Part shown: piece after piece, positions 12,373 to 24,530 of the stretch
Position numbering within the stretch: the first letter of the stretch is position 1
Layout of the letters: each line of letters opens with the position of its first letter
Origin: Candidatus Delongbacteria bacterium
GTDB taxonomy: Bacteria > UBA4055
DNA: 64,000 nt
Direction of reading: 5' to 3'
Assembly: GCA_016937995.1 (NCBI GenBank)
Contig: JAFGVM010000024.1
Location: 309-64,308, forward strand
The notes under the pieces: model-generated
What the model was told of the DNA's origin: nothing
The model's input: only the letters and a program-made list of their open reading frames with translations
Databases searched by the model: none
Program-made: the position numbers and the translations under genes

Positions 12373-12397
12373 AAAAAATAGCCCCAAATGGAGCTAT
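12373..12397 (-). terminator. Rho-independent terminator ending the Mbx-like operon
   Basis: Minus strand reads AATAGCTCC-attt-GGGGCTATT followed by TTTTTT. Confidence 0.6.
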
Positions 12398-12413
12398 TAG
12401 AAGTTAGATGTAG

Positions 12414-12510: not shown

Positions 12511-12957
12511 TTATATATTGATCCCGTAAGGATTTTGAATATATTCCCTGAGTTCTTTCACTTCAGTCTCTGACTGCTCAAGAACCTGTTTTAGAACATC
12601 ACCGATGGATAATATTCCAATTAGCTTTCCATCTTCAACTACAGGAAGATGCCTGACTCTCTTGTTGATCATCACATCCATTGCATAGCTTAATCTTTCA
12701 TCTTTAGTTGCAATGATGAGATCCTCTTTCGGAGTCATAATATCTTTGATCTTCATTGTTTCAGGATGACCGTCACATTTGTAAAGAACATCTCTCTCAG
12801 TTACGATACCCTGAAGTTTTGAACTGCCGTCAGTAACAACTAAAGATCCAACTCTATGTTTTCCGAATAACTCAACCGCTTCTTTTGCAGTACTGTTAAT
12901 ATCGATATTAAAAGTCTCTGTACTTTGTTTCTTCTTTAGTAAATCTGTTAATTTCAT
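12511..12957 (-). CDS. CBS-pair domain protein
   Basis: Two CBS motifs (VGSLVVTDG..LQGIVTERDV and VRHLPVVEDGKLIGILSIGDV). It is the last gene of the Mbx-like operon, 14 nt after the previous stop. Confidence 0.85.
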   Translation of the reverse strand: MKLTDLLKKKQSTETFNIDINSTAKEAVELFGKHRVGSLVVTDGSSKLQGIVTERDVLYKCDGHPETMKIKDIMTPKEDLIIATKDERLSYAMDVMINKRVRHLPVVEDGKLIGILSIGDVLKQVLEQSETEVKELREYIQNPYGINI

Positions 12958-12971
12958 ATCACATCTCCTGT

Positions 12972-14765
12972 TTATTTACTGCTCAAATATTCATCTATAC
13001 CTTTTGCTGCAGTATGACCGTTTGCAATACCGTTGATAACATCAGGACCTTTTATAATATCTCCACCAACGAATAACCAAGGAAGTGATGATTGATATTT
13101 TTCATTAACAACAATCCTGCCTCTATCGCTGAATTCAAGTTTATCTTTAATAGATTCTAGGTAAGATAAGTCCATACCCTGACCGATTGATTCAACAACC
13201 ATATCTGCCGGGAAGAATTTCTTTTGAGCTTCATCAAATTTAGGACTGAATCTTCCTTCTTCATCGAATACTGAAAGACATTTAACAACATTTAGACCTG
13301 TTACTTTACCGTTTTCAATTACAATCTCTTTCGGTCCCCATCCGGGATCAATGATACATTTTTCTTCTCTTGCTTCAACAACCTCTTCCCTGTCAGCAGG
13401 CATAATATCTTCAGTCTCAAGTGAAGTTGCAGTCACATCTACCTTACCATATTTTTTATTCTGCAGTCTTGCTAACGATCTGGTGATATCCATCGCAACA
13501 TTACCACCACCGATAACAACTACTTTTTTATCAACGCGGATCTCATTTCCAAGAGATATCTCTCTCAGAAGATCAGTTGCAAAGTAAACATTCTCATGTT
13601 CAGAACCCGGTATTCTTGTACTTCTACCAAGGTGCAAACCTGTGCCTGAGAAGACCGCATCATAATCTTGTTCAAGTTGTTCTATTGTAATATCTTTACC
13701 TATACGAACATTATATTCTATCTCGACACCGCAGGATAAAATATAGTTAATATCTTTATCGATCTGGTCGTAAGGAAGACGATATTCAGGAATACCGTAT
13801 CTCATCATTCCACCTGCAGCAGGAAGTGCTTCAAATATCTTAATTGCATATCCCATTCTTGATAAGTAATAAGCAGCTGAAAGGCCTGAAGGTCCTGAAC
13901 CTATTATTGCTACTTTTTTACTCTTTGGAGTGATCTCTAAGCCTCGTTCAAGAACTTCTTTATATTTACTCTCAGGAACTTGATCAGCGATATATCTTTT
14001 TAACCAACGAATAGATAAAGGTTCCCCTTTGTGACCGATCGCACAGACAGTTTCACACCTATGAGTACATATTCTACCACATATCTCCGGCAATGGATTA
14101 GTTTCATACATTATTCTGAGACCTTCTTCCATATCGTCATTTCTGATAGCTTTGATATATTCAGGGATAGCCATATGAGCAGGACAAGTTGCAGTACAAA
14201 GGCCACAATCAATACATCTGTCCGCTTCCGCTTCCGCCTGTTCTTTAGAATAACCTTTTACGAATTCAATGAATGATTTATCCCTTTCTTCAGGATGAAG
14301 CTCAGCCATGTCAACTCTATCGTAATTGTTAAGATCATAATTTTTAGGTTTAGTCCACCCAAGTTCATTATTATCCCACTCTTTTTTGTCATATCCGGGA
14401 ATAAATCTGAAAACATCCGGATCAGAATCGATCCAGGTATATTCGTTAGATAAAGTCAGAGAATTTGTCGAACAAACATCAACACATAAAGCACACCAGC
14501 AACACCTGCCGTAATCAACCATTGGCCTTAATCCACTGTCACCGTCTTTAGTTTCAATACCTTCAACAGGAACCATATCTATAGCAGCATTCTGACAAAT
14601 CTCTTCGCATGCTCCACAACCAATACATTTATCCAGCTCGTTTTTGTGGAATCCTCTATATCTTGGAGCACCCGGTCTGTCATTGAACGGATCTTTAACA
14701 GTAACCGGATCCTTAAATACTTTCTTCCAAGCTAAAAATGGTGATAATACATCTTTTATACTCAT
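12972..14765 (-). CDS. Fusion of a NuoI/MbxN-like 2x[4Fe-4S] ferredoxin with a GltD/SudA/NfnB-like NAD(P)H-FAD oxidoreductase
   Basis: N-terminal part: PRYRGFHKNELDKCIGCGACEEIC...YGRCCWCALCVDVC (NuoI-type). The rest: DRCIDCGLCTATCP...NPLPEICGRICTHRCETVC...KVAIIGSGPSGLSAAYYL...AAGGMMRYGIPEYRLP...VVVIGGGNVAMD...FVGGD (GltD-type). Confidence 0.85.
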   Translation of the reverse strand: MSIKDVLSPFLAWKKVFKDPVTVKDPFNDRPGAPRYRGFHKNELDKCIGCGACEEICQNAAIDMVPVEGIETKDGDSGLRPMVDYGRCCWCALCVDVCSTNSLTLSNEYTWIDSDPDVFRFIPGYDKKEWDNNELGWTKPKNYDLNNYDRVDMAELHPEERDKSFIEFVKGYSKEQAEAEADRCIDCGLCTATCPAHMAIPEYIKAIRNDDMEEGLRIMYETNPLPEICGRICTHRCETVCAIGHKGEPLSIRWLKRYIADQVPESKYKEVLERGLEITPKSKKVAIIGSGPSGLSAAYYLSRMGYAIKIFEALPAAGGMMRYGIPEYRLPYDQIDKDINYILSCGVEIEYNVRIGKDITIEQLEQDYDAVFSGTGLHLGRSTRIPGSEHENVYFATDLLREISLGNEIRVDKKVVVIGGGNVAMDITRSLARLQNKKYGKVDVTATSLETEDIMPADREEVVEAREEKCIIDPGWGPKEIVIENGKVTGLNVVKCLSVFDEEGRFSPKFDEAQKKFFPADMVVESIGQGMDLSYLESIKDKLEFSDRGRIVVNEKYQSSLPWLFVGGDIIKGPDVINGIANGHTAAKGIDEYLSSK

Positions 14766-14802
14766 GTTAATCCTCTATATAAAAACTTTCTATTCTTGGT
14801 TT

Positions 14803-14879
14803 AGAGTTTTGAGTTGTTGGTTTTGAGTTATTGGGAACTTATCCTCACAACTCACAACCCGCAACTCACAACTATCTCT
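14803..14879. repeat. Long imperfect hairpin built from heptamer repeats (TTTTGAG / CTCACAA) in an intercistronic spacer
   Basis: The left arm agagttttgagttgttggttttgagttattggg is approximately complementary to the right arm cctcacaactcacaacccgcaactcacaactatctct. It overlaps the stop codon of the NuoD-like gene. Confidence 0.6.
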
Positions 14880-16050
14880 CAATTTCCGGTGGGCATGTAG
14901 CTAATGATACCATCAACGATGAAACATCTGATATATTAGCGTTTACCAATATTTTTTCAAGTAACACCATTGCTGAATTATAACTTGGTCCTCTAAGATT
15001 TATTCTTCTAGGGTATTCAGTACCGTCAGTTACCATATAGAAACCGTATTCACCTCTGGATGATTCTATTCTTTTGTAAGTTTCACCTTTAGGTATTTTC
15101 CAATGAAGAACATTCGGTGTCTTGGCTCTGATCTCACCTTTTTCCGGCATTTTAGCCATGATCTGCCTTATAAGATCTACTGACGCTTGAAGATCATGCC
15201 ATCTTACCCTTGATCTTGCATAAATATCTGAATCTTTCTCAGTATGAGGTTCAAAGTCTAATTTATCATATTTCAAATACGGATAATCTTTTCTGACATC
15301 TCTCATTATTCCAGCTGCTCTGGCATTAGGACCAACAACACTGTATTTATCGATCCAATCCTTTTCAATTACTCCAACACCTTTTGTTCTCTTCTTGAAA
15401 ACAGCATTACTGAACATCAAATTATCTATATCAACGACAAATTCATCAATTTTTTTTAATACTTCTTCCATTCTTTCTTTGAATCCGGAAGGTAATAGTC
15501 CTCTAACTCCACCAGGTGCAATATACATGTGATAAACCCTGCCACCTGTAAGTTCTTCAAATCTGTCCAGCATCAGGTCCCTGATATAAACACCCCACTG
15601 AACTCCCATTCCAAGACTCATAGTCCCACCTTGTCCGGGAACTCCTCTAAGCAGTATAGTTACTCTTGCCATTTCAAGCACTAATGTTCTTAGCCATTCT
15701 GCCATCTCTGGGACCTCAATACCTCCAAGTTCTTCAACAGATGCAGCAAGCAAATATTCATTAATATCAGGCTCGGGAACGCACATTCTGATGCAGATAG
15801 GAAAACACTGGATGAATTTTCTTCTTTCCATCAATTTTTCAAAAGCTCTGTACAGATAACCTACATGTGTCTTTGATTTAATAACTTCATCACCGGAAAC
15901 TGTAAGTTCAAGTGCCATATTTCCTGTAACTCCAGGATGGTTCGGCCCTTGCCAGATCTTTACATATTTTTGGGAATCAAGATCGAAATCTAATGTTCCG
16001 TCATCTTTCATAGTAGGAAATTTTGATCTGTCTTCTTTTATATTGAACAT
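14872..16050 (-). CDS. NuoD / MbxL-like large subunit without canonical NiFe-binding motifs
   Basis: Group-4-hydrogenase/NuoD fold: HVGYLYRAFEKLME, ELTGGRVYHMYIAPGGV, SRGEYGFYMV. The L1 position reads PICIRMCVPEP, not RxCGxCxxxH. The C-terminus reads SLATCPPEIER, not DPCxxCxxR. Confidence 0.8.
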   Translation of the reverse strand: MFNIKEDRSKFPTMKDDGTLDFDLDSQKYVKIWQGPNHPGVTGNMALELTVSGDEVIKSKTHVGYLYRAFEKLMERRKFIQCFPICIRMCVPEPDINEYLLAASVEELGGIEVPEMAEWLRTLVLEMARVTILLRGVPGQGGTMSLGMGVQWGVYIRDLMLDRFEELTGGRVYHMYIAPGGVRGLLPSGFKERMEEVLKKIDEFVVDIDNLMFSNAVFKKRTKGVGVIEKDWIDKYSVVGPNARAAGIMRDVRKDYPYLKYDKLDFEPHTEKDSDIYARSRVRWHDLQASVDLIRQIMAKMPEKGEIRAKTPNVLHWKIPKGETYKRIESSRGEYGFYMVTDGTEYPRRINLRGPSYNSAMVLLEKILVNANISDVSSLMVSLATCPPEIER

Positions 16051-16081
16051 CTACTGTCCTCTAATTTTGTTTTATTATTAT

Positions 16082-16120
16082 GTGCTGTGAGACGTTGCGG
16101 GGCAACGTCTCTACGAGCAC
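16082..16120. repeat. Strong GC-rich hairpin element between the nuoC-like and nuoD-like genes
   Basis: GAGACGTTGC-ggg-GCAACGTCTC (16089-16111), extended by GTGCT/AGCAC. It shares GCAACGTCTCTAC with 24032-24044 and TGTGAGACG with 56412-56420. Confidence 0.75.
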
Positions 16121-16684
16121 CTAACCCTGATCCGGATACAATTTTGATTTCATGTATTCCTTTGTATCATAACTCTTCCTTCCTTCTCTCGGGAAGAAAT
16201 TATCTGTAGCATATTTCAATGTATCAAAATCTCTTCTCATAGGTGGGATATCATCCCAGTCTTCCAGTACAAAATCATCATTAACACCGGGACTGCCGGG
16301 AAAATCGATGCCGAATAATTCTTTAATTTCTCTCTGATCTGTTTGTGCATGTATCCATAGATGATGAATAGAATCCATAACAGGATTATCTCTGTCAATA
16401 TCAACTCGGATAGCAATATCATATTTGTTTACAGGATGATTTAAAATGTATGTCAGCTGAAATTTGTTCTCTTCCAGCCAGTCAACACTTGACAGCATTA
16501 TCAAATGTGTAAAACCTTCAAGCTCTTTCAGATAATTCAGAATATCGACAAGTAATTTTTTCCCGATAGAAAAAAACAGCAGATCATCCCTTTTCTGAAG
16601 AACATCCGTGATCTCATATTTACTTTTTATCTTTTCTAATATTTCATTCATATCTTTTAATCCTATTTTAATTCCTATATCCAT
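16121..16684 (-). CDS. NuoC / MbxK-like subunit
   Basis: LTYILNHP...DIAIRVDI...FGIDFPGSP...DWDDIPPMRRDF is typical of the 30-kDa NuoC family. An alternative start is at 16651. Confidence 0.8.
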   Translation of the reverse strand: MDIGIKIGLKDMNEILEKIKSKYEITDVLQKRDDLLFFSIGKKLLVDILNYLKELEGFTHLIMLSSVDWLEENKFQLTYILNHPVNKYDIAIRVDIDRDNPVMDSIHHLWIHAQTDQREIKELFGIDFPGSPGVNDDFVLEDWDDIPPMRRDFDTLKYATDNFFPREGRKSYDTKEYMKSKLYPDQG

Positions 16685-16814: not shown

Positions 16815-17459
16815 TTACCAGTTGTAATCGGGCATATCCCATCCTTTGATTACCTTCTTTTGATTAGCCTTATACCAGTCAAATCTCTCAGCATAATCAT
16901 TTGCACCTTCGGCTTTACCTGCTCTGATCCTTTTCTTCAGCTCTACAAACCCTGAAAGAATTGCTTCAGGTCTTGGCATACATCCCGTGATATAAACATC
17001 TACCGGAATATAGTGATCCAGTCTGTTGATAGTATTAAAACTATCATAATACATTCCACCGTTAATCGTACAACTGCCTAATGCTATTATATACTTAGGA
17101 CCCTGCATTTGCTCATAAGCTCTGATAACTCTTTTCAAAGTTTTCACAGCCAAATATCCTGAAATAATAAACACACCTGCTTGTCTTGGAGTAGGTCTCA
17201 TCTGAACACCGTATCTGAACATATCAAATCTTGGAGTTGTCAAAGGCGGTAATTCAATACTACCACACCCTGTTCCCCATCCAAGTACCCATAGAGAATT
17301 CGATCTTGCCCAGTTGAAGAATTTTTCAAGTAACGGATGTGCAGGCTCCTGAACTTCAGGTCTTTTATCACAAAAGTATTCTTTCATCGGATCAACTGTA
17401 AATACTTCACCATCAGGTGCGGTTACAGTTCTCTTTTTTAAATCATCCATTCGAGTCAT
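16815..17459 (-). CDS. NuoB / MbxJ-like small subunit
   Basis: Contains WGTGCGSIEL, LGSCTINGG and ITGCMPRPE (NuoB-type motifs). Only one Cys is present where NuoB has CC. Confidence 0.85.
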   Translation of the reverse strand: MTRMDDLKKRTVTAPDGEVFTVDPMKEYFCDKRPEVQEPAHPLLEKFFNWARSNSLWVLGWGTGCGSIELPPLTTPRFDMFRYGVQMRPTPRQAGVFIISGYLAVKTLKRVIRAYEQMQGPKYIIALGSCTINGGMYYDSFNTINRLDHYIPVDVYITGCMPRPEAILSGFVELKKRIRAGKAEGANDYAERFDWYKANQKKVIKGWDMPDYNW

Positions 17460-17474
17460 TTATTTAAACCTCTA

Positions 17475-18395: not shown

Positions 18396-21300
18396 TAAAA
18401 TATCCCTCCGTTAAGAATAAAGTAGAAAAATACGACAAAACCGATTATGTGCATAATATATACCTGTGCATTACCGTTATAGAATTTTCTGAAGAAATCT
18501 GAACTCGAATGAAAAAGATCAGTTATAAAATTCCAGAAATTTGTTACTAGTGGCAAGACAAGAAAACCAAGAGCTTTTCTGTAATGTGAGAACATATTAT
18601 ATGAAAAATGTGCAGTTTGAGGACTTTCAGGTCTTTCGGCAGAATATACAATGTTGAACATTTCAACTTTTGTTGCTTTCCTGCTTGCAAATAATAGGAA
18701 TCCTAATAAAACAGCGAACATGACACATACTATTATCATTATATAGAACGGATCCCAAACACCGAATAATTTACCATTTACAAAAGTTGATGCGGCATCA
18801 CCATTCCAGACAACAGTGTTCTCAGGTAATATTTCTTTAAAATATAAACCTACTTTCTCCAGTATCATCCTTGGTTTTGATGATAAGACCATCAGAGTAG
18901 CTATTATCAAATATTGAGGTATCAAATACCAAACTGATACTTCTGTCATTTTTCTATGCTTATCTTTTATAGGTCCTAAGAAAATCGAATATATTAGTTT
19001 GAAAAGATATAAGAAAGCTACAACTCCAGAGAAGGCAATAATTGCACCCTGGAAATACCATCCTTTTAAGATAAAAGCGTTATAAAGAAGCCATTTTCCA
19101 CCGAATCCTGCCAATGGAGGAACACCTGACAATGCAATTATACCGATAAGAACTGAAATAAAAGACATCGGCATTTTTTTTATCAAACCACCCATTTCAT
19201 ACATTTTATGAGTTTTGAGTTTTAATACTATCGCACCTACTGCAAGGAATAATAAGGCTTTATACAAGAAATGAGTGATCGAATACCAAATTGCTGCCAG
19301 CCAGCCTACATTTGTCATTATTGCTAGAGCAAATAAGATATAACCTAACTGAGCTATACTTGAATAAGCCAGTAATTTCTTCGCATCTTCCTGGAATGAA
19401 GCTATTAAATTTCCAAGTAAAGCTGTAATTGCTCCTACCCAGCCTAATATGTAAAATAGATTTGAAACATCGTTATTTCTCATTGCTATGAATAGAATTA
19501 TCAGTCCGAATACTCCGGCTTTTAGTAGTACTGCAGAAACCATTGGAGAAACATCACTTTCTGCTTCAGCGTGAGCTCCCGGCAACCAGATATGAAGTCC
19601 GATAGAAGCAGTTTTTGTCATAAAACCCAGTGCAAGAAGTATAAATACCATAGTTGCATAAATATGAACCTCCGACAATGAAGTTAATAAAATACTTCCG
19701 GTTTCAGCTCCGGATAAAGCAAATCCGAATAAGATCAGATAAGCACCACCTGCAGAGAATAATATATAACTCAATGCGTGAGACATTGATCTTTTACCTC
19801 TCAGGATCAGGAAGTACGAACCTGCTGTCATTATTTCCCAGGCAAAAAAGAATTGAAAGAAAGTTTCAGCTTCGATCAATCCGATCAGTCCTACATACAT
19901 CATAGCAGCAACAGGATAGAATCCTATTCTCTTCCCTTTTACGCTATAACCGGGAATAAATGTTAATATTCCACCGACTAAGAATATCAAAGCGAATATC
20001 AGCTTTAAAGTATCTAAACCGGGAACAAGTATATATCCATAGTATGATACGGCGATCATAACCAGTGTATTCTTAATATATACTGGTAAGAAGTCTATTA
20101 AGAATAGTATTCCCACAAATGCTAAAGGTATGAAATTAATTGACAGACCAGCATCAAATGATCTGGTAATATAGAACCCTGCGACATAAAGCAATAGAGT
20201 AACAATATAGACCGGATGTAACTGATGTTGAGGTTTTTCTACTTTTTCTTCACTGTCTTCCAGTTTAAGAATGTAACCGAACCATCTGAATAAATAAAGG
20301 ACTTCAAGTATCGATGCTAATATCACCAGACTTATCCATAAGAACGATCCATTCTCAGCCAGTATCATTACTAAAGACCATTTTGCGGCTAAAGATGGAA
20401 ATGGAGGGAAACCCATCAGTGCTAAGATAAATGTTCCGAACATGAAAATCAGAATAGGATGTTTCTTTATCTTTACCCAGTCTTGAATTTTCTCAGCTTT
20501 TACAATTCCTGACAACCAGAACAAACCTGCTTTAGCTAAGAAATGACTGATAAGTAATCCAAAGAATATTTTCTCAAAATTATCACCGAGTATATCTTTT
20601 GATGCTATTACAAATACCAATAATCCGATCTGACCTATCGAAGAATAACCTAACAATCTATTCGTACTCTTCTGCATAATTGCGAAAAGGTTTGATACTA
20701 CAAAAGTAAGCACACCGATTATAACGATCATCTTTGTTAGATCAATTGATGCTAAAGGAAGTACTTTGTATAGAACAAATAACAAAGCCGTTGCAGATGT
20801 TGCTGAGATCATTGCAGAAATGCCTGTATCAGATCCTTCATAAACATCTAAGGCCCAACCGTTAGCAGGGAAAACTTTTAATTCAATTACAACAGAGAAT
20901 ATCAGTATGAATACGCCAACAAATAATATTTGTGATGAACCTGCAGCTGATACAGCAGCGATCATTCCATCTAAGTTCAAAGTTCCTGTTTTAGAATATA
21001 TAAGGATTATACCAAGAAGTAAAAATACTGATGCAATCCCACCTGCAATCATATATTTAAATCCTGCAGACAGAGATTTTAATCTTAAGTCCATACCTAT
21101 AAGGATATACGTTGCAATTGATGTAATTTCCAGGAAAACAAAAATATTGAATATATCTCTGGTCAATACTAATCCGTTCATTCCGAGTATGAAGAGTAAA
21201 AATACTACTAATGCCTGAATTCCGTTCTCTGCAAAATATTTAAACGAATAGATCGCTCCAAGTAAAGCACCAAAATTGATCAATGTAATTAGAACCGCTT

Positions 21301-21538
21301 CATTTAACCCCATCTGTAAATTGATCGACATCGGAGGTTTAAATCCGGCAGTGAAGATCTGTACAGCTTGTTGACCATCGATCAGAAAAGCTGACAACCA
21401 TTGGTAACTGATCGCAGTAACTGCTATTATTCCTAAAAAGAATATTGTTACTGTTACTTTTATTCCGGCCTTATTTATTGACGGCAATAAAAATCCAAGA
21501 CCTAGTAAGATTGCTATTATATATATTGGATTTACCAT
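18395..21538 (-). CDS. Fused double MrpD/NuoN-type antiporter-like subunit (MbxH+H' equivalent), 1047 aa
   Basis: There are two proton-conducting-transporter modules. The first has GWALDVYEGSDTG...LLGYSSIGQIG. The second has WLPGAHAEAESDVSPMVSAVLLKAG...LLAYSSIAQLG. Confidence 0.85.
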   Translation of the reverse strand: MVNPIYIIAILLGLGFLLPSINKAGIKVTVTIFFLGIIAVTAISYQWLSAFLIDGQQAVQIFTAGFKPPMSINLQMGLNEAVLITLINFGALLGAIYSFKYFAENGIQALVVFLLFILGMNGLVLTRDIFNIFVFLEITSIATYILIGMDLRLKSLSAGFKYMIAGGIASVFLLLGIILIYSKTGTLNLDGMIAAVSAAGSSQILFVGVFILIFSVVIELKVFPANGWALDVYEGSDTGISAMISATSATALLFVLYKVLPLASIDLTKMIVIIGVLTFVVSNLFAIMQKSTNRLLGYSSIGQIGLLVFVIASKDILGDNFEKIFFGLLISHFLAKAGLFWLSGIVKAEKIQDWVKIKKHPILIFMFGTFILALMGFPPFPSLAAKWSLVMILAENGSFLWISLVILASILEVLYLFRWFGYILKLEDSEEKVEKPQHQLHPVYIVTLLLYVAGFYITRSFDAGLSINFIPLAFVGILFLIDFLPVYIKNTLVMIAVSYYGYILVPGLDTLKLIFALIFLVGGILTFIPGYSVKGKRIGFYPVAAMMYVGLIGLIEAETFFQFFFAWEIMTAGSYFLILRGKRSMSHALSYILFSAGGAYLILFGFALSGAETGSILLTSLSEVHIYATMVFILLALGFMTKTASIGLHIWLPGAHAEAESDVSPMVSAVLLKAGVFGLIILFIAMRNNDVSNLFYILGWVGAITALLGNLIASFQEDAKKLLAYSSIAQLGYILFALAIMTNVGWLAAIWYSITHFLYKALLFLAVGAIVLKLKTHKMYEMGGLIKKMPMSFISVLIGIIALSGVPPLAGFGGKWLLYNAFILKGWYFQGAIIAFSGVVAFLYLFKLIYSIFLGPIKDKHRKMTEVSVWYLIPQYLIIATLMVLSSKPRMILEKVGLYFKEILPENTVVWNGDAASTFVNGKLFGVWDPFYIMIIVCVMFAVLLGFLLFASRKATKVEMFNIVYSAERPESPQTAHFSYNMFSHYRKALGFLVLPLVTNFWNFITDLFHSSSDFFRKFYNGNAQVYIMHIIGFVVFFYFILNGGIF

Positions 21539-21894
21539 TTTAAGTCCTTGTAATCGTTAATTGACAATGATTTCTTCTGTTGGTATAATCTTATTACGAA
21601 GGTTAGCATCAGAGCATTTACCGCCACGCCAATAACAATAGCTGTAAGAACCAGTGCCTGAGGTACAGGATCAACTATTAACGAAGATGCCTTGCTAAGC
21701 TCTACCGCAGAGTCTAAGATAGGAGCAGTTCTTCCGTCTATAAATCCAAAAGCGACCATCACAAGCTGAACACCTGTCTCTACTATTGCTAATCCTAAAA
21801 TTATCTTTATCATATTCTTTTGGGTCAACATTCCCCAGAAACCTATCAATATGAGAGCAAATCCTGTTATATGAACTATAGTTGTTATATTCAT
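21532..21894 (-). CDS. MrpC/MnhC (NuoK-like) subunit
   Basis: 120 aa with 3 TM segments, including GLAIVETGVQLVMVAF. The operon position fits MrpC. Confidence 0.75.
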   Translation of the reverse strand: MNITTIVHITGFALILIGFWGMLTQKNMIKIILGLAIVETGVQLVMVAFGFIDGRTAPILDSAVELSKASSLIVDPVPQALVLTAIVIGVAVNALMLTFVIRLYQQKKSLSINDYKDLKW

Positions 21895-22592
21895 TCAAGC
21901 TCCCCCTTCATATTGTCCAATATACTCGCCAGTTCAGTTCCTACTTTCAATCCTACAAGTGTATAGATCAGTGGTATAGTTCCAGCACTTAAAATAGTTC
22001 CAAAAGTTCCAAGTGGTAAAATTCTATTATCCAGGAAGTTATCTGCTCCGAGTATAACGAGACCTAAAACACCGATAAGGACATAGAAGATTCCCGAAAA
22101 TGATTCTATTAAAACAAATACTTTATGATTGATCTTAAATGAACTATCTGCCAAGAACATTAACATTACAGCAGATGCTATAGCTGCTCCACCCTGAAAT
22201 CCACCACCAGGTGATAAATGCCCATTTATGAATATATATGCACCAAACATTGTTATTATTGGTACCAACAGTTTTGAACCTGTCTTCAATATTTCACTGG
22301 CTGCTCTATTCTTTATTCCTGAATCATTTTTCTTTTTCTTTCTTCTGAGTAATAAAGCAATACCAGTTCCTGCCATAAATAATACAGTAACTTCACCCAG
22401 TGTATCTAAGCCTCTATAAGTTACAACAATTGCAGTAACCAGATTCATTGCTCCAAGATCTGATGCTCCCTGTTCTGCATAAGTCTTTGCAACACCTGTC
22501 AGATCATAATTCGGTGCAACATTCGTCGCTACTTTTAATAATATGAAAAACAGTGATATTACTAATAATAAAGGTATCAGTCTTTTAATCAT
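21891..22592 (-). CDS. MrpB/MnhB-domain subunit
   Basis: NLVTAIVVTYRGLDTLGEVTVLF is the MnhB signature. ATG at 22592 is preceded by GGAGGA. The track start at 22628 overlaps the previous gene more deeply. Confidence 0.75.
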   Translation of the reverse strand: MIKRLIPLLLVISLFFILLKVATNVAPNYDLTGVAKTYAEQGASDLGAMNLVTAIVVTYRGLDTLGEVTVLFMAGTGIALLLRRKKKKNDSGIKNRAASEILKTGSKLLVPIITMFGAYIFINGHLSPGGGFQGGAAIASAVMLMFLADSSFKINHKVFVLIESFSGIFYVLIGVLGLVILGADNFLDNRILPLGTFGTILSAGTIPLIYTLVGLKVGTELASILDNMKGELE

Positions 22593-22845
22593 TTTCTTCC
22601 TCCACATCTTTTGTTTTGTGAAGTGCATATAAAAATATCAAAGTAGATAAACCTGCACCGATAGCAGCTTCTGTCATTGCAACATCAGGTGCCTGCATCA
22701 ATAGATACAATATACTTGCAAATAAACTTACTACTCCTACTGCGATGATCGAAGATATCAAATCCTTCACATGCATTGCTAATACTGCCGCAATGATCAT
22801 TGCTAAACCCATCAGTATGAAAATGCCTTGTTGTAATTCCATCAA
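22585..22845 (-). CDS. MrpB N-terminal-like (DUF4040/MbhD-like) subunit
   Basis: 86 aa with 3 TM segments, including LLMQAPDVAMTEAAIGAGLST. There is a 4-nt overlap with the mrpG-like gene. Confidence 0.7.
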   Translation of the reverse strand: MMELQQGIFILMGLAMIIAAVLAMHVKDLISSIIAVGVVSLFASILYLLMQAPDVAMTEAAIGAGLSTLIFLYALHKTKDVEEEND

Positions 22846-23186
22846 TCTACCTCCACTTCGGTACTTTCTTTCTCTTTCAGCTTATCAGCTACAGAACCTT
22901 TTGTCAAAGGAATTCCTTTGAAATGTGCTGCTCTAGCTAATGCATGACTTGAAATAGGATTTGTTAAAGCTATGAACATTATTATTACGAGTATCTGACC
23001 GATCCATTCGTAATGACAGATTCCGATTCCTAATAATGTTAAAATTGTTCCTAAAGTAGTTGCTTTAGTTCCTGCCTGCATCCTGTTGTAAAGATCTGGC
23101 ATTCTAAATACTCCCAAAGCTCCGAGAAATAAGAATATTGAACCTATTAATGTTATTATTGATCCTAAAATTCTGTACCATTCCAT
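22842..23186 (-). CDS. MrpG/MnhG subunit
   Basis: Contains GALGVFRMPDLYNRMQAGTKATTLG...ISSHALARAA. Confidence 0.8.
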   Translation of the reverse strand: MEWYRILGSIITLIGSIFLFLGALGVFRMPDLYNRMQAGTKATTLGTILTLLGIGICHYEWIGQILVIIMFIALTNPISSHALARAAHFKGIPLTKGSVADKLKEKESTEVEVD

Positions 23187-23187
23187 T

Positions 23188-23457
23188 TTATAGCCCCCCT
23201 TCTAAATAACGGGCTACTGCGACTACACCTATGAAACTTAAGATAGCATAGACCATTCCTACATCCAGGAATATCACCCTTTCTGACATACACGCTATCA
23301 GTGTAATTAATGAAATGGAAATCACTGTAAATGTATCCAGCGCTACGACTCTATCTGCCATACTTGGACCTATGATCAGTCTCAGTGTCGCAAGTATTAT
23401 CCCTGCTGATACAAAATAAGTTGATATTTGTAATAATATCTCCGGTAAGTTAGCCAA
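23188..23457 (-). CDS. MrpF/MnhF subunit
   Basis: Contains LRLIIGPSMADRVVALDT...VVAVARYLE. Confidence 0.8.
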   Translation of the reverse strand: MANLPEILLQISTYFVSAGIILATLRLIIGPSMADRVVALDTFTVISISLITLIACMSERVIFLDVGMVYAILSFIGVVAVARYLEGGL

Positions 23458-23938
23458 AGATCACCTCCAGATATTTTTCGAAATTTGCCACGATTTTCTC
23501 TGTTGCTGTTTTTTCATCGATATTAGTAACATCGATCCAGTGTATATATAATATATCTTCATCTATATCTACTGTCAAAGTTCCGGGAGTTAATGTTATT
23601 GAATTTGCCAATATCATTCGACCCATTGCTGATTTCAATTTTGTTTTCACTGTAACTATCCCTGGATTGATAGGGATCTTAGGAGAAACAACTCTTCGAG
23701 CTACATCGAAATTTGCCTTTATTATTTCAATGAATAGGAATATTACATACCAGATAGAATATATCCACTTTTTGGGAGACAACATTGGTTTGAACAACGA
23801 TCTGTTATAGATAATACTGATAACTAAAGCTATGAAGGCAATTATCAATATATTATACAAATCAGTAGTACCTGTCCAAATAAAATAGAACAATGTGAGA
23901 ATCCCCGTCGAAAATATCACCTTTATAATTCTATCCAT
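23450..23938 (-). CDS. MrpE/MnhE subunit
   Basis: Contains ANSITLTPGTLTVDI..ILYIHWI. ATG at 23938 follows GAGGT. The longer track ORF (to 24076) reads through intergenic repeat elements. Confidence 0.75.
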   Translation of the reverse strand: MDRIIKVIFSTGILTLFYFIWTGTTDLYNILIIAFIALVISIIYNRSLFKPMLSPKKWIYSIWYVIFLFIEIIKANFDVARRVVSPKIPINPGIVTVKTKLKSAMGRMILANSITLTPGTLTVDIDEDILYIHWIDVTNIDEKTATEKIVANFEKYLEVIFG

Positions 23939-23967
23939 ATATACCTCTAAATCGTTATTTGTTGTTT

Positions 23968-24044
23968 TGTCATTGCGATCCCGATAAATCGGGAGTGGCA
24001 ATCTTGTTTTCGTAATTGTAAGACCTTGCAGCGCAACGTCTCTA
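23968..24044. repeat. Two hairpin elements in the MarR-mrpE spacer
   Basis: TGTCATTGCGA-[TCCCGATAAATCGGGA]-GTGGCAATC (23968-24003) and AGACcTTGC-agc-GCAAcGTCT (24021-24041), which abuts the MarR stop codon. Confidence 0.75.
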
Positions 24045-24530
24045 CTAACAATTATCGTTTCCTGACAAATTCTCACTGAATTTTTCTTTGTCCCTTTGCA
24101 ACTTTGATGACCACACTTTATTAAGAAGATTTAGACCATTATATATTGTATCCTGATCTTGTTCATTAACTTCATCAAAGAGATCTTTGCAATAATTTAT
24201 GGTTATCTTTTTTAATTCTTTAACAAATACATTTCCTTTATCGGTCAGAGTAACATTTATTCCTCTTCTGTCATCTGGGGCCATATCTCTGCGCAATAGA
24301 CCTGCTTCTTCCAAAGCAGCAACGATCCTTGTAACTCCACCGGAAGTTATATTCAATCTCTCGGCCAGATCCTTGACAGATATACTTTCTGATTCAAAAT
24401 ACTGCTTCAGACAATTTAATTCAGAGCAAGTAAGATCCATTGATCTTGCAACTTTTTTATCTTTTAATTGACAATAAAGCTTCATTGAGCTTATTATGTT
24501 TGAAATTTCGTTTACCCGACTTTGATTCAT
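24045..24530 (-). CDS. MarR-family regulator heading the Mbx-like operon
   Basis: wHTH segment SVKDLAERLNITSGGVTRIVAALEEAGLLRRDMAPDDRRGINVTLTDKG. Three N-terminal Cys (LYCQL, TCSELNC) are conserved with the paralog at 1-260. Confidence 0.85.
   Translation of the reverse strand: MNQSRVNEISNIISSMKLYCQLKDKKVARSMDLTCSELNCLKQYFESESISVKDLAERLNITSGGVTRIVAALEEAGLLRRDMAPDDRRGINVTLTDKGNVFVKELKKITINYCKDLFDEVNEQDQDTIYNGLNLLNKVWSSKLQRDKEKFSENLSGNDNC

What the first reader, a model, noticed from the sequence alone, without database searches (positions are those of the whole stretch)
12511..24530. Bacterial Mrp-Mbx/MBS-type membrane oxidoreductase operon that fits neither complex I nor a standard hydrogenase
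Thirteen co-directional minus-strand genes, several overlapping by 1-8 nt. In order: MarR, MrpE, MrpF, MrpG, MrpB-N-like, MrpB, MrpC, a 1047-aa double MrpD-type subunit, NuoH-like, NuoB-like, NuoC-like, NuoD-like, a NuoI-like::GltD-like fusion, and a CBS pair. This order reproduces the archaeal mbx/mbs (A to N) layout rather than nuo or ech. The window has no NuoE/F/G, NuoA/J, hyp maturation genes or hydrogenase endopeptidase, and the NuoD-like subunit lacks canonical NiFe ligands. The substrate reduced at the NuoB/NuoD interface is therefore open. Polysulfide, by analogy with archaeal MBS, is only a guess.
Basis: partly seen in the sequence, partly recalled or inferred. Interest (0 to 1): 0.8.

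Follow-up and report, generated by a model that had tools for sequence, protein, structure and literature searches.

The report
Bacterial MBS-type sulfur-respiration complex, flavoprotein-fused
This operon encodes a bacterial relative of the archaeal membrane-bound sulfur reductase (MBS/Mbx), an evolutionary cousin of respiratory complex I, with its own NAD(P)H-type flavoprotein fused on; the kind was already noted in Thermotoga, is far more widespread than reported, and has never been tested biochemically.

Summary
Fourteen co-directional minus-strand genes (24530 to 12511) read MarR, MbxA-B-C-D-E-G, a fused H-H', M-J-K-L, NuoI::GltD, and a CBS pair.

All seven subunits compared with solved structures match P. 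furiosus MBS (6U8Y) best, ahead of complex I, MBH or FHL. The residue signatures are MBS-type:
- two of the four NiFe cysteines remain;
- the quinone ligands H38 and Y87 are absent;
- the proximal cluster has three Cys on the short MBS loop.

It is also not a new kind. Mbx-like operons with a GltD-related subunit were described in Thermotoga and proteobacteria in 2015, and T. maritima mbx is induced by sulfur.

New here:
- gene order is identical in all related loci that extend across the cluster (two sets of 80);
- 63 of 80 distant bacterial loci carry the fusion;
- the site that binds the NADPH phosphate comes in two forms, YRRR or, as in this window, an invariant Leu-Glu, which suggests NADH;
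- many relatives add a DHODH-like gene that the window lacks.

Best mechanism: NAD(P)H to FAD, through five [4Fe-4S] clusters, to sulfane sulfur, coupled to ion pumping (confidence 0.45). The donor, acceptor and direction are untested.

The parts
24045..24530 (-). MarR-family regulator, first gene of the co-directional block. It is not conserved next to the operon in relatives.
   Evidence: Pfam MarR, 1.3e-12. Absent from the related loci. A sigma-70-like TTGACA-17-TAAATT at 24585-24557 and an AAGGTG ribosome-binding site lie upstream; the promoter match is no better than chance.
23450..23938 (-). MbxA/MbsA (MrpE-like). The mechanical ORF runs to the GTG at 24076; the probable start is the ATG at 23938.
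   Evidence: Pfam MNHE, 8e-40, covering residues 59-204 of the long ORF. GAGGT ribosome-binding site plus ATG at 23938.
23188..23457 (-). MbxB/MbsB (MrpF-like)
   Evidence: Pfam MrpF_PhaF, 4e-18. Position conserved in relatives.
22842..23186 (-). MbxC/MbsC (MrpG-like)
   Evidence: Pfam PhaG_MnhG_YufB, 5e-26.
22585..22845 (-). MbxD/MbsD (MbhD-like, related to the C-terminal part of MrpA)
   Evidence: Pfam MbhD, 1e-21.
21891..22628 (-). MbxE(F)/MbsE (MbhE plus MnhB domains, MrpB-like)
   Evidence: Pfam MnhB, 4e-25, and MbhE, 2e-9.
21532..21894 (-). MbxG/MbsG (MrpC/NuoK-like)
   Evidence: Pfam Oxidored_q2, 1e-23.
18395..21538 (-). Fused MbsH-MbsH' (two MrpD/Nqo13-14-like antiporter subunits in one 1047-aa protein). 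The C-terminal extension corresponds to helix HL and Loop 1.
   Evidence: PDB: residues 7-310 match 6u8y_H; residues 474-1032 match 6u8y_X, the 618-aa antiporter-like MBS chain taken here to be MbsH'. H' residues E568, K642, K673 and K815 are invariant in 54/54. The H half keeps E137, E219 and K386, but Pf K250 is T/A/S. It is a single ORF in 53 relatives of the close clade, and two genes in most distant relatives.
17475..18395 (-). MbsM (NuoH-like membrane anchor of the peripheral arm)
   Evidence: PDB best hit 6u8y_M, 139.5 bits, against MbhM 68.5 and NuoH 57.9.
16815..17459 (-). MbsJ (NuoB-like). It carries the proximal [4Fe-4S] cluster with only three Cys available: C65, C130, C160.
   Evidence: PDB best hit 6u8y_J, 210.9 bits, against NdhK 139 and MbhJ 97.5, aligned without gaps through the cluster loop. 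The three Cys are invariant (one exception at C160). The Pf C25 position is Gly in 63/63.
16121..16684 (-). MbsK (NuoC-like)
   Evidence: Pfam Complex1_30kDa, 1e-22. PDB best hit 6u8y_K.
14872..16050 (-). MbsL (NuoD/NiFe-large-subunit-like). It has no NiFe site and no quinone ligands.
   Evidence: PDB best hit 6u8y_L, 292 bits, full length, against Nqo4 175, MbhL 121 and HycE 86. Motifs RMCVPEPD and TCPPEIE match Pf RICVPEPD and NCPPDIDR. Nqo4 H38 aligns with Thr and Y87 with Val. Falls in the MBS-type clade.
12972..14765 (-). MbsN::NfnB/GltD-type flavoprotein fusion. Residues 1-125 form a 2x[4Fe-4S] NuoI-like domain. Residues ~150-597 form a 2x[4Fe-4S] + FAD + NAD(P)-binding module.
   Evidence: N-terminus best hit 6u8y_N, 7e-23; C-terminus best hits NfnL 5jca_L, 6e-78, and NfnB 4ylf_B. 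NCBIfam PRK13984 covers residues 1-596. 17 invariant Cys. GxGxxG and GGGNVAMD are conserved. The NfnB YRR segment is S448-L449-E450 here, with L449, E450 and E452 invariant in 80/80. R329, the flavin-N5 Arg, is kept.
12511..12957 (-). Stand-alone CBS-pair protein, a probable adenine-nucleotide-sensing accessory or regulator and the last gene of the unit.
   Evidence: Pfam CBS x2, 3e-24. Found in the same position in 26 related loci, directly after N or after a DHODH-like gene.
12377..12398 (-). Terminator-like hairpin (9 bp stem plus T-run) after the CBS gene; probable end of the transcription unit.
   Evidence: No comparable minus-strand site lies in any intergenic gap inside the cluster.

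Best explanation
SHOWN. The cluster encodes a bacterial member of the MBS/Mbx branch of the complex-I superfamily.
- It has a Mrp-derived membrane arm (A, B, C, D, E, G and a fused H-H').
- It has a NuoH-like anchor (M) and a peripheral arm (J, K, L, N).
- Subunit N is fused to an NfnB/GltD-type module with FAD, a dinucleotide-binding fold and two further [4Fe-4S] sites.
- It has no NiFe site and no quinone-ligand pair.
- Its proximal cluster can have only three cysteine ligands, as in the P. furiosus MBS structure.

INFERRED, the mechanism I commit to.
1. A reduced pyridine nucleotide is oxidised at the FAD. I predict NADH rather than NADPH in this subfamily, because the two Arg that bind the 2'-phosphate in NfnB are replaced by an invariant Leu-Glu.
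2. Electrons pass one at a time through the two GltD-type clusters and the two MbsN-type clusters to the three-Cys proximal cluster on MbsJ.
3. The open iron of that cluster reductively cleaves a sulfane S-S bond (polysulfide or an organic per- or polysulfide) in the hydrophobic L/J/M chamber.
4. The redox chemistry in the chamber drives H+ translocation by the H-H' protein and Na+/H+ exchange by the Mrp-like module.

The enzyme would therefore be an ion-translocating NAD(P)H:sulfane-sulfur oxidoreductase. In function it would parallel complex I, with a different NAD(P)H-dehydrogenase module and sulfur in place of quinone. Reduced ferredoxin may feed the same cluster chain. The CBS-pair protein probably tunes activity to the adenylate state.
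For: Identity.
- Gene order matches mbxABCDFGHH'MJKLN.
- H, H', M, J, K, L and the N-terminal part of N each match P. furiosus MBS chains best.
- The motif-labelled tree places L with Pf MbsL and apart from NuoD and the NiFe hydrogenases.

Catalytic site.
- J keeps the Cys equivalent to Pf C28, C93 and C123 in 61-62 of 62 relatives, on a loop of MBS length. The non-liganding C25 is Gly in 63/63.
- The MBS structure paper assigns catalysis to this three-Cys cluster and shows that C25 and L C85/C385 are dispensable (PMC7684303). This matches the variability of C90 and C386 here.
- The quinone ligands H38 and Y87 are Thr and Val.

Electron input.
- All 16 cluster cysteines, the FAD GxGxxG motif, the second Rossmann motif and the flavin-N5 Arg are invariant or nearly so.
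- The fusion is the best-conserved subunit, at 66-92% identity.
- NfnB-like modules serve as the NADPH entry point in NfnABC (PMC11829005).
- Two conserved Arg bind the NADP phosphate in NfnB (PMC6405883). Here they are L449-E450, invariant in 80/80.
- A Rex-type NADH-sensing regulator sits upstream in 5 related loci.

Sulfur link.
- T. maritima mbxA rises 4.4-fold with S0, together with nsr (PMC9431562).
- A CoADR/NSR-family gene lies about 7 kb away in the window.
- Many related MAGs come from sulfidic caves and sediments.
Against: - No bacterial member has been assayed. The donor, acceptor, direction and coupling ion are all inferred.
- Thermodynamics are tight. NADH (-320 mV) to polysulfide (about -260 mV) yields only about 12 kJ per 2 e- under standard conditions, against about 42 kJ for ferredoxin-driven MBS (PMC8165549). 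Yet the full two-antiporter-subunit plus Mrp machinery is retained.
- The H half lacks the central TM8 lysine.
- The NADH prediction rests on a motif analogy only.
- 46 close relatives add a DHODH-like flavoprotein right after the fusion. The flavoprotein arm may therefore have a further substrate site that this model ignores.
- The family also occurs in sulfur-oxidising Gammaproteobacteria, where the reaction may run in the opposite direction.
Confidence: 0.45

Rival explanations
1. Ion-translocating ferredoxin:NAD(P)+ oxidoreductase, the original 'Mbx' model and functionally like Rnf. Reduced ferredoxin donates to the cluster chain and the fused flavoprotein reduces NAD(P)+. A cytoplasmic NSR/CoADR then uses the NAD(P)H to reduce sulfur.
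For: - This is how bacterial Mbx is usually annotated in the literature (PMC4758237, 10.1101/322537, PMC4596419).
- The fused module provides a physical NAD(P) site.
- Ferredoxin to NAD(P)+ gives a larger driving force than NADH to polysulfide.
- An NSR-family gene is nearby.
- nsr and mbx are co-induced by S0 in T. maritima (PMC9431562).
- In Nfn, ferredoxin docks near the distal cluster of NfnB (PMC6405883).
Against: - The model was abandoned for the archaeal enzyme once MBS was shown to reduce polysulfide directly (PMC7684303).
- Electrons going from ferredoxin to FAD need never reach the proximal cluster or chamber, which is where coupling to the membrane arm occurs in this superfamily. 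Yet the three-Cys cluster and the L/J/M module are strictly conserved.
Confidence: 0.2
2. A redox hub, possibly flavin-bifurcating. NAD(P)H and ferredoxin both exchange electrons with the chain. The NfnB-type FAD would split the NAD(P)H electron pair between a high-potential sink (sulfur at the proximal cluster, or the DHODH-like FMN subunit in relatives) and a low-potential one (ferredoxin).
For: - The module is closest to the bifurcating NfnL/NfnB proteins (6e-78) and keeps the flavin-N5 Arg considered important for bifurcation (PMC6405883).
- 46 relatives add a DHODH-like flavoprotein directly after the fusion, which could form a second branch.
Against: - The window has no NfnA-like or DHODH-like partner, so only one exit path from the FAD is visible.
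- Both cluster motifs differ from those published for NfnB (Cx2Cx4Cx3C and GRVCPQExQCx3C; PMC6405883). Here they are a canonical CxxCxxCxxxC and a four-Cys Cx3Cx3Cx3C, closer to a plain electron wire.
- NfnB-like domains in NfnABC do not bifurcate (PMC11829005).
Confidence: 0.12
3. An alternative NAD(P)H:menaquinone oxidoreductase: complex I chemistry with a GltD-type input module.
For: - The chamber is hydrophobic and in MBS is as wide as that of complex I (PMC7684303).
- NADH to menaquinone would comfortably power two antiporter-like subunits.
- From general knowledge, many carriers (Bacteroidota) make menaquinone.
Against: - The quinone headgroup ligands H38 and Y87 are Thr and Val, and the NuoD-type DRxDY...GExD signature is absent.
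- L and J score far higher against MBS than against any complex I or NDH-1 subunit.
- The tandem-Cys N2 motif is absent.
Confidence: 0.08
4. The same enzyme running in reverse: ion-gradient-driven oxidation of sulfide or polysulfide to reduce NAD(P)+.
For: Fused MBS-type operons occur in many sulfur-oxidising, CO2-fixing Gammaproteobacteria and Hydrogenophilales. The potential gap to NAD+ is small.
Against: The window's neighbours and closest relatives (MAGs labelled Delongbacteria, Bacteroidales, Spirochaetia, Fermentibacteria) are, from general knowledge of these groups, fermentative anaerobes. The window shows no sulfur-oxidation or carbon-fixation genes.
Confidence: 0.05
5. An ordinary energy-converting (group 4) [NiFe] hydrogenase.
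For: Overall subunit homology to MBH and Ech.
Against: - Only two of the four NiFe cysteines are present, and those two vary among relatives.
- No hyp genes or maturation protease in 64 kb.
- MbhL scores 121 bits against 292 for MbsL.
Confidence: 0.01

Closest known systems
[quoted passage not shown]
   Same: - One-to-one subunit set and gene order.
- Best PDB match for H, H', M, J, K, L and the N-terminal part of N.
- Three-Cys proximal cluster on the same short loop.
- Two vestigial NiFe Cys in L and no quinone ligands.
- H' has a C-terminal helix-HL/Loop-1 extension.
   Different: - N is fused to a 450-aa FAD/NAD(P)/2x[4Fe-4S] module, so the chain has five clusters plus a flavin. The donor is probably a pyridine nucleotide rather than, or as well as, ferredoxin.
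- H and H' are one polypeptide.
- The non-liganding Cys (Pf C25) is Gly.
- The H half lacks the TM8 Lys.
- A CBS-pair gene is added.
- Identity is only about 38-48%.
- The host is bacterial and probably mesophilic (probably Delongbacteria).
Bacterial 'MBX' / mbx-like operons of Thermotogae (T. maritima; Mesotoga Theba_1796-1808) and proteobacteria (Degli Esposti 2015)
   Same: Same kind: an Mrp-Mbx gene set whose NuoI position carries a gltD-related flavoprotein. Thermotogae loci fetched here (L087, L088) have the same A..L order and an N::GltD fusion.
   Different: - The Thermotogae loci L087 and L088 have the canonical YRRR (NADPH-type) site, separate H and H' genes, and the C-T-G-C form of the J motif.
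- Their L subunit is about 40% identical to the window's.
- The window belongs to a distinct Leu-Glu-type subfamily with fused H-H'.
- T. maritima itself was not retrieved, so that comparison rests on the literature.
Respiratory complex I (Nuo/Nqo) and cyanobacterial NDH-1
   Same: An L-shaped design is inferred from homologous Q-module subunits (NuoB/C/D/H/I-like) and antiporter-like pumps. If the mechanism is right, it also couples NAD(P)H oxidation to ion pumping.
   Different: - No NuoE/F/G: the NAD(P)H module is NfnB/GltD-type, an independent recruitment.
- No NuoA/J/L-type subunits; it has the Mrp E/F/G/B-like subunits instead.
- No H38/Y87 quinone ligands and no tandem-Cys N2 motif.
NfnB/NfnL, the NfnB-like domain of NfnABC/Stn, and GltD
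   Same: The C-terminal 450 residues share the full fold signature: two cluster motifs, the FAD GxGxxG, the second Rossmann motif and the flavin-N5 Arg. E-values are 1e-77 to 1e-80.
   Different: - Fused to a NuoI-type dicluster domain, with no NfnA partner.
- Cluster motifs are CxxCxxCxxxC and Cx3Cx3Cx3C, not the published NfnB motifs Cx2Cx4Cx3C and GRVCPQExQCx3C.
- The 2'-phosphate Arg pair is replaced by Leu-Glu, with a 6-residue insertion before it.
Dihydropyrimidine dehydrogenase PreT/PreA (relevant to the 46 relatives with a DHODH-like gene)
   Same: A GltD-like subunit followed by a DHODH-family TIM-barrel flavoprotein.
   Different: - The window lacks the DHODH-like gene.
- In relatives it belongs to the unassigned family NF005741. 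Pfam found only the DHO_dh domain there and no Fer4 domain; from memory, PreA carries a ferredoxin domain.
- No evidence for pyrimidine chemistry.

Membership tests
MBS/Mbx-type membrane-bound sulfane reductase | 13-subunit gene set in the order A-B-C-D-E(F)-G-H-H'-M-J-K-L-N | tested here: met
   Same order in related loci. H and H' are fused, and N carries an extra domain.
MBS/Mbx-type membrane-bound sulfane reductase | Catalytic-arm subunits closer to MBS than to MBH, FHL or complex I | tested here: met
   - L: 292 bits against 175, 121 and 86.
- J: 211 against 139 and 97.
- M: 139.5 against 68.5 and 58.
- K: best hit 6u8y_K.
- N-terminus of N: best hit 6u8y_N.
- Tree clade with Pf MbsL, moderate support, 63/100.
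MBS/Mbx-type membrane-bound sulfane reductase | Proximal [4Fe-4S] with three Cys ligands on a loop three residues shorter than in MBH (PMC7684303) | tested here: met
   Gap-free alignment to MbsJ through the motif. C65, C130 and C160 are conserved and the fourth Cys position is Gly in 63/63. The actual coordination needs a structure.
MBS/Mbx-type membrane-bound sulfane reductase | L retains two of the four NiFe Cys (Pf C85, C385) and lacks the quinone ligands H38 and Y87 | tested here: met
   C90 and C386 are present; the other two positions are Glu; H38 is Thr and Y87 is Val. The two Cys are lost in about 28% of close relatives, consistent with their being non-catalytic.
MBS/Mbx-type membrane-bound sulfane reductase | Two proton-pump subunits with the conserved charged axis (H: E138, K250, H330; H': E128, K248, H336) | tested here: inconclusive
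   H' keeps E, K, K, K but H336 is Tyr. H keeps E137, E219 and K386, but K250 is T/A/S and H330 does not align.
MBS/Mbx-type membrane-bound sulfane reductase | Ferredoxin-dependent polysulfide or DMTS reductase activity coupled to a Na+ gradient | not testable with these tools
   Biochemical property. Only indirect support: S0 induction of T. maritima mbxA (PMC9431562).
Group 4 energy-converting [NiFe] hydrogenase (MBH, Ech, Hyc/Hyf) | Large subunit with RxCGxC and DPCxxC motifs (four Cys) | tested here: not met
   RMCVPE and TCPPE: two of four.
Group 4 energy-converting [NiFe] hydrogenase (MBH, Ech, Hyc/Hyf) | hyp maturation genes and an endopeptidase in the genome | tested here: inconclusive
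   None in the 64-kb window. The rest of the genome is not available.
Respiratory complex I (NADH:quinone oxidoreductase) | NuoE/F/G N-module, NuoA/J/L, NuoD H38/Y87 and the tandem-Cys N2 motif in NuoB | tested here: not met
   No such genes in the window. T42 and V91 stand at the ligand positions. The motif is G-T-G-C-G rather than C-C.
NfnB/GltD-type pyridine-nucleotide:iron-sulfur flavoprotein | Two [4Fe-4S] motifs, the FAD GxGxxG motif and a second dinucleotide fold | tested here: met
   Fer4_20, 1e-30, and Pyr_redox_2, 2e-23. 5jca_L, 6e-78. 8 invariant Cys; GSGPSG and GGGNVAMD conserved.
NfnB/GltD-type pyridine-nucleotide:iron-sulfur flavoprotein | Two conserved Arg that bind the 2'-phosphate of NADP(H) (PMC6405883) | tested here: not met
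   The YRR segment is S-L-E here, with L449 and E450 invariant in 80/80. YRRR is kept in 24 of 63 more distant fused relatives. The paper gives no residue numbers, so equating its two Arg with the YRR pair is my inference from their position in the fold.
Mrp-type Na+/H+ antiporter | Stand-alone MrpA-G set with no redox arm | tested here: not met
   MrpE, F, G, B, C and D homologues are present, but they are joined to NuoH/B/C/D/I-like genes in one conserved operon.

The most novel reading that the evidence does not exclude
The flavoprotein-fused MBS-type complexes may form a large, unrecognised class of bacterial respiratory enzymes. They independently acquired an NAD(P)H-dehydrogenase module (NfnB/GltD-type instead of NuoEFG) and use a three-Cys iron-sulfur cluster to reduce sulfane sulfur while pumping ions, a sulfur-respiring counterpart of complex I.
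- They would come in NADH-type (Leu-Glu) and NADPH-type (YRRR) paralogues, which can coexist in one genome.
- Many Bacteroidota versions would be extended by a DHODH-like flavoprotein.
- In sulfur-oxidising Gammaproteobacteria (Thiodiazotropha, Sedimenticola, Thiomargarita) they would run backwards, giving gradient-driven sulfide-to-NAD(P)H electron flow for CO2 fixation.
Probability: 0.3. Interest if true: 0.8.

Novelty: new member of a known kind. Interest (0 to 1): 0.5.

Why it matters
MBS is viewed as the evolutionary link between energy-converting hydrogenases and complex I, and it is the only example of S-S bond reduction catalysed by an iron-sulfur cluster. All the biochemistry comes from one hyperthermophilic archaeon.

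This work shows three things:
- The same catalytic core is widespread in bacteria, apparently including mesophiles. The alignment-based search hit its 600-match limit in one-genome-per-species data.
- In bacteria the core is usually fused to a pyridine-nucleotide flavoprotein.
- That fusion comes in two nucleotide-site forms.

If the inferred mechanism holds, many fermentative and sulfur-cycling bacteria of sediments, digesters and symbioses have an unannotated, energy-conserving route between NAD(P)H and zero-valent sulfur. That would change redox and ATP budgets in metabolic models. It would also provide a second, independent example of how a complex-I-type machine acquired NADH as a substrate. 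At present the subunits are annotated as 'NADH-quinone oxidoreductase' or 'FAD-dependent oxidoreductase / glutamate synthase small chain', which is misleading.

Tried and rejected
- **Sigma-70 promoter scan.** 56 sites against 54.8 expected, so it is uninformative.
- **Sigma-54 promoter.** I searched because a sigma-54 activator lies divergently upstream. There is no site in the shared intergenic region, and window-wide the count is below chance.
- **P0123 as a handle on outgroup organisms.** No relatives among the representative genomes. Replaced by an alignment query.
- **The listing of cluster members for the outgroup representatives.** No names for the nearest ones.
- **First tree attempt.** Timed out. 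The redone NJ tree supports the MBS-type placement only moderately; the exact five-taxon clade appears in 3/100 replicates because other archaeal Mbx-like and long-branch sequences join it.
- **T. maritima's own operon.** I could not retrieve it directly, so that comparison relies on the literature and on other Thermotogae loci (L087, L088, L130, L135).
- **Rfam and tRNA scans.** Nothing found.
- **Two literature searches ('Mbx-like/NfnB', 'MbxN/MbsN').** Only irrelevant hits.
- **Structure prediction of the fusion.** Considered and not run. The tool returns no coordinates, so inter-cluster distances, which are the only decisive read-out, could not be measured.
- **Hydrogenase and complex I readings.** Rejected on residue evidence.
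- **A DHODH-like gene elsewhere in the window.** Rejected by tblastn.

Full report

Yes. All genes are on the minus strand, in this order:
- MarR
- MrpE-like (A), MrpF-like (B), MrpG-like (C), MbhD-like (D), MbhE/MnhB-like (E), MrpC/NuoK-like (G)
- a 1047-aa double MrpD-type protein
- NuoH-like (M), NuoB-like (J), NuoC-like (K), NuoD-like (L)
- a 597-aa NuoI-like::GltD-like fusion
- a CBS pair

That is 14 genes. The membrane-arm genes overlap by 1-8 nt or are 1 nt apart. The peripheral-arm genes are separated by 14-130 nt. The long GTG-initiated MrpE ORF that overlaps marR is probably an artefact. A GAGGT ribosome-binding site and an ATG at 23938 give a 162-aa protein that matches the extent of the MNHE domain.

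A terminator-like hairpin follows the CBS gene at 12398-12377, and no comparable site lies in any internal gap. Consensus promoter scans were at chance level. The rest of the window encodes housekeeping functions. It has no hyp genes, hydrogenase protease, NuoE/F/G or NuoA/J.

**2. What is it?**

I compared seven subunits with the sequences of all solved structures. Each has its P. furiosus MBS counterpart (6U8Y) as best hit.

| Subunit | MBS counterpart | Next-best comparisons |
|---|---|---|
| L | 292 bits, full length | 175 T. thermophilus Nqo4; 121 MbhL; 86 HycE |
| J | 211 bits | 139 NdhK; 97 MbhJ |
| M | 139.5 bits | 68.5 MbhM; 58 NuoH |
| K | best hit 6u8y_K | |
| N, N-terminal 125 residues | best hit 6u8y_N | |
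| Large protein, residues 7-310 | 6u8y_H (MbsH) | |
| Large protein, residues 474-1032 | 6u8y_X (618-aa chain, taken as MbsH'), including the C-terminal extension | |

I also ran an exhaustive search of 1.84 billion cluster representatives with L, followed by a motif-labelled alignment. It separates three classes:
- NiFe hydrogenases: RxCGxC...DPCxxC.
- NuoD-type proteins: DRxDY...GExD, with the H38/Y87 quinone ligands.
- A small MBS-type class: R-[IM]-C-V-[PV]-x-P-[DE]...C-[PS]-P-[DE]-I-[DE]. It contains the window protein, Pf MbsL and a few representatives.

A neighbour-joining tree places the window sequence with Pf MbsL and archaeal Mbx-like sequences. It sits apart from the large NuoD group and from the hydrogenases. 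Support is moderate: in 63 of 100 bootstraps all five MBS-signature sequences fall in a clade of eight or fewer taxa.

**3. Residue-level tests against the MBS structure paper (PMC7684303)**

That paper defines MBS by four features:
- Two of the four NiFe cysteines are retained in L (C85, C385). Mutagenesis shows they are non-catalytic.
- The quinone ligands are absent.
- The proximal [4Fe-4S] cluster on J has only three cysteine ligands (C28, C93, C123). The loop is three residues shorter than in MBH, which leaves C25 unable to bind.
- The open iron of that cluster is proposed as the catalytic site.

The window compares as follows:
- L has C90 and C386 at the C85 and C385 positions and Glu at the other two.
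- Nqo4 H38 and Y87 align with Thr and Val.
- J aligns to MbsJ without gaps through the motif (GWGTGCGSIE against FCTGCGGIE). It keeps the three liganding cysteines and has Gly in place of C25.

Conservation across the close relatives (62 J-like and 75 L-like sequences):
- The three J cysteines are invariant, with one exception at the third.
- The C25 position is Gly in all 63 sequences (the relatives plus the window).
- The two vestigial L cysteines are lost in about 28% of sequences.

This is what one expects if the three-Cys cluster is the functional element and the other cysteines are dispensable.

The pump test is mixed. The H' half keeps E568, K642, K673 and K815 (54/54). The H half keeps E137, E219 and K386, but Thr, Ala or Ser replaces the central TM8 lysine throughout the clade.

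**4. The fused flavoprotein**

Residues ~150-597 of the N subunit match the NADPH-binding large subunit of Nfn and related proteins: P. furiosus NfnL, T. maritima NfnB, and the NfnB-like domains of NfnABC and Stn. E-values are about 1e-77 to 1e-80. GltD matches more weakly.

Conserved elements in the fusion:
- All eight cysteines of its two cluster motifs
- The eight cysteines of the NuoI-like domain, plus one extra (C89)
- The FAD GxGxxG motif
- The second Rossmann motif, GGGNVAMD
- The flavin-N5 arginine (R329)

It differs from NfnB in two ways.
- **Cluster motifs.** They are a canonical CxxCxxCxxxC and a four-Cys Cx3Cx3Cx3C. The published NfnB motifs are Cx2Cx4Cx3C and GRVCPQExQCx3C (PMC6405883). 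This suggests an ordinary electron wire rather than the very low-potential bifurcating branch.
- **Nucleotide site.** The segment Y-R-R-[ST] at the end of the second strand of the NAD(P) fold reads [S/C/A]-L-E-x-E. L449, E450 and E452 are invariant in 80/80, and a six-residue insertion precedes the segment.

The Nfn review states that two conserved arginines bind the extra phosphate of NADP+ in NfnB (PMC6405883). Equating those two arginines with this pair is my inference from their position. An acidic residue at that position is the classical mark of NADH preference, from general knowledge of Rossmann folds. I therefore predict that this subfamily uses NADH. This is not tested.

The fusion is the best-conserved protein of the operon, at 66-92% identity across phyla, against 40-60% for the Mrp-like subunits.

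**5. Distribution and variants**

*First set.* A scan of one genome per species found the whole fusion at 66-92% identity in MAGs labelled Delongbacteria (92-95% for several subunits, so probably the window's source lineage), many Bacteroidales, Marinilabiliales and Draconibacterium, Spirochaetia, Fermentibacteria, Cloacimonadota, Marinimicrobia and Chlorobiota.
- Every locus that reaches far enough has the same A-B-C-D-E-G-HH-M-J-K-L-N::GltD order, with H and H' fused.
- The protein database holds many clusters of this fusion. Their names are generic: 'FAD-dependent oxidoreductase', 'oxidoreductase', 'glutamate synthase small chain'. The cultured Prolixibacter bellariivorans is among the carriers.
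- NCBIfam has a full-length model named only 'putative oxidoreductase'.

*Second set.* A search with an alignment of MBS-signature L subunits hit the 600-match limit. It reached Caloramator, Thermotogae, Brevinematales, Synergistota, WOR-3, Hydrothermia, Planctomycetota, Sumerlaeota, Melioribacter, Sulfurovum, several archaeal groups and many sulfur-oxidising Gammaproteobacteria (Thiodiazotropha, Sedimenticola, Thiomargarita, Chromatiales, Thiohalobacterales).
- In 63 of those 80 loci N is fused to the GltD-type module.
- Clearly unfused N (12 loci) is seen mainly in archaea, Caloramator-type Firmicutes, a Synergistota MAG and Sulfurovum.
- H and H' are separate genes in most.

*Nucleotide site.* It is YRRR in 24 loci (including the Thermotogae loci L087 and L088, WOR-3, Hydrothermia, Melioribacter and some Bacteroidales). 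It is the window-like [S/A/C]-[L/M]-E in about 37 loci, including all the Gammaproteobacteria.
- One MAG (Fermentibacteraceae AUK191) carries both types: L025/L047 and L120. Because it is a MAG, this needs confirmation.
- The window's L, J and NuoI-like parts are closest to loci whose GltD module is YRRR-type and only about 49% identical. Its GltD module is closest (63-65%) to other Leu-Glu-type modules. This hints at module exchange or very uneven rates.

*Accessory genes.*
- 46 loci of the first set have a gene of the unassigned NCBIfam family NF005741 ('dihydroorotate dehydrogenase-like protein') directly after the fusion, sometimes followed by the CBS gene.
- The window and 15 others go straight to CBS, and the window has no such gene anywhere.
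- GltD-like plus DHODH-like is the subunit pairing of dihydropyrimidine dehydrogenase. In those relatives the flavoprotein arm may therefore have a further redox site.
- Upstream regulators differ between lineages: Crp/Fnr in 24 loci, Rex in 5, TetR in 3, and MarR plus a divergent sigma-54 activator in the window.

**6. What the literature already says**

[quoted passage not shown] He proposed it as the NAD(P)+ reduction site and noted the vestigial cysteines.
- The T. maritima 13-subunit MBX is called an MBS homologue. mbxA rises 4.4-fold on S0 addition, together with nsr (PMC9431562).
- Mesotoga (10.1101/322537) and Caldanaerobacter/Thermoanaerobacter (PMC4596419) papers annotate Mbx as a ferredoxin:NADP oxidoreductase by analogy.
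- In the searchable library I found no biochemical characterisation of any bacterial member. I also found no description of the broad distribution outside thermophiles, the two nucleotide-site types, the H-H' fusion or the DHODH-like accessory. The library lacks most subscription-journal papers, for example Schut et al. 2013.

**7. How it most likely works**

Shown:
- The subunit composition
- The cofactor-binding motifs: one FAD, one dinucleotide site and five [4Fe-4S] sites
- The MBS-type catalytic signature
- The absence of NiFe and quinone sites

Inferred:
1. NAD(P)H, predicted to be NADH here, is oxidised at the FAD.
2. Electrons travel through the four clusters of the fusion to the three-Cys proximal cluster.
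3. That cluster reduces a sulfane S-S bond in the L/J/M chamber.
4. This chemistry is coupled, through the loop system described for MBS, to H+ pumping by H-H' and Na+/H+ exchange by the Mrp-like module.

Circumstantial support:
- S0 induction in Thermotoga (PMC9431562)
- A CoADR/NSR-family flavoprotein about 7 kb away in the window
- Rex regulators in some relatives
- The sulfidic habitats of many carriers

The main weakness is energetic. NADH to polysulfide offers only about 12 kJ per two electrons under standard conditions, and ferredoxin-driven MBS has about 42 kJ (PMC8165549). Three possibilities remain open: ferredoxin co-donation; the old Fd:NAD(P)+ model, which lacks an obvious coupling site; or a higher-potential acceptor. 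I give the main model 0.45. The rivals are Fd:NAD(P)+ oxidoreductase 0.20, redox hub or bifurcation 0.12, quinone reductase 0.08, reverse operation in this organism 0.05, and hydrogenase 0.01.

**8. Verdict**

It is a new member of a known kind, not a new kind. Its value is that the kind is much larger and more structured than reported, is systematically mis-annotated, and remains biochemically uncharacterised. The open question (donor, acceptor, direction) can be tested directly in cultured carriers. Interest 0.5.

Noticed in passing
window 4345-5694 (+), within the plus-strand cluster 381-6583: A CoA-disulfide-reductase/NSR-family flavoprotein (Pyrococcus CoADR 4fx9/3kd9 about 4e-48; CoA-persulfide reductase 8a56; NCBIfam CoA-disulfide reductase 7e-70, below cut-off). 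Around it lie DUF134, three NifX/NifB-like Nitro_FeMo-Co proteins, two MinD/ParA-type ATPases with 2x[4Fe-4S] inserts, and a CGGC-domain protein. NSR is the cytoplasmic partner of MBS/MBX in Pyrococcus and T. maritima.
   Followed up: partly
related loci, e.g. L058:11825-12865 (+); 46 loci of L001-L080; also L096, L112, L117, L128, L129, L134, L138, L140: A DHODH-like TIM-barrel gene (NCBIfam NF005741 'dihydroorotate dehydrogenase-like protein', 389 bits) sits directly next to the operon, usually a few nt after the N::GltD fusion. The window has no copy. GltD-like plus DHODH-like mirrors dihydropyrimidine dehydrogenase PreT/PreA. Its role in an MBS-type complex is unexplained.
   Followed up: partly
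fusion residues 444-457 (window 13395-13436); loci L081-L160: The site that binds the NADPH 2'-phosphate in NfnB has two forms among fused MBS-type operons: YRRR (24 loci) and [S/A/C]-[L/M]-E (about 37 loci, including the window and all sulfur-oxidising Gammaproteobacteria). MAG AUK191 (L025/L047 and L120) appears to carry both.
   Followed up: partly
loci L090-L125 (e.g. L095 Thiodiazotropha, L103 Sedimenticola, L109 Thiomargarita, L108 Hydrogenophilales): Complete flavoprotein-fused MBS-type operons occur in chemolithoautotrophic sulfur oxidisers and symbionts. A sulfur reductase is unexpected there, so the enzyme may run in reverse.
   Followed up: no
L049 (Neomarinimicrobiota MAG018), downstream of the first operon: A second, divergent Mbx-like membrane-arm gene set (A-B-C-D-E-G-H, 33-53% identity) starts right after the first operon's CBS gene.
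   Followed up: no
window 18395-21538 (-), residue 250 of the fused H-H' protein: The central TM8 lysine of the MbsH-like half (Pf K250) is Thr/Ala/Ser in all 54 sequences of the clade, and the H' half keeps its full set of charged residues. The H half may not be a canonical proton channel.
   Followed up: partly
window 12972-14765 (-), fusion residues C89 and C496: Two cysteines outside the recognised cluster motifs are invariant in 79/79 relatives (C89 next to the second NuoI-type motif; C496 in the FAD/NAD domain). NfnL has Met at the position of C496. Function unknown.
   Followed up: no
window 24705-25859 (+) and 25856-26356 (+): A divergently transcribed sigma-54 activator with no N-terminal sensor or receiver domain (the AAA+ domain starts at residue 19), followed by an overlapping 166-aa ORF with no Pfam match. 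No sigma-54 promoter was found in the shared intergenic region.
   Followed up: partly
window 32946-36053 (-), 56507-59806 (-), 31711-32865 (-), 36334-37536 (+), 10963-12153 (-): Several long ORFs (1035, 1099, 384, 400 and 396 aa) have no Pfam hit at E<1e-5. Next to them is a 1418-aa FG-GAP repeat protein (6694-10950).
   Followed up: no
loci L113, L130, L132, L133, L135, L144-L147, L149, L151, L153, L154: A subgroup of bacterial MBS-type L subunits has lost both vestigial NiFe cysteines (motifs RxNVxxPD...[VTA]APEID). It keeps the C-T-G-C form of the J motif and the fusion.
   Followed up: no
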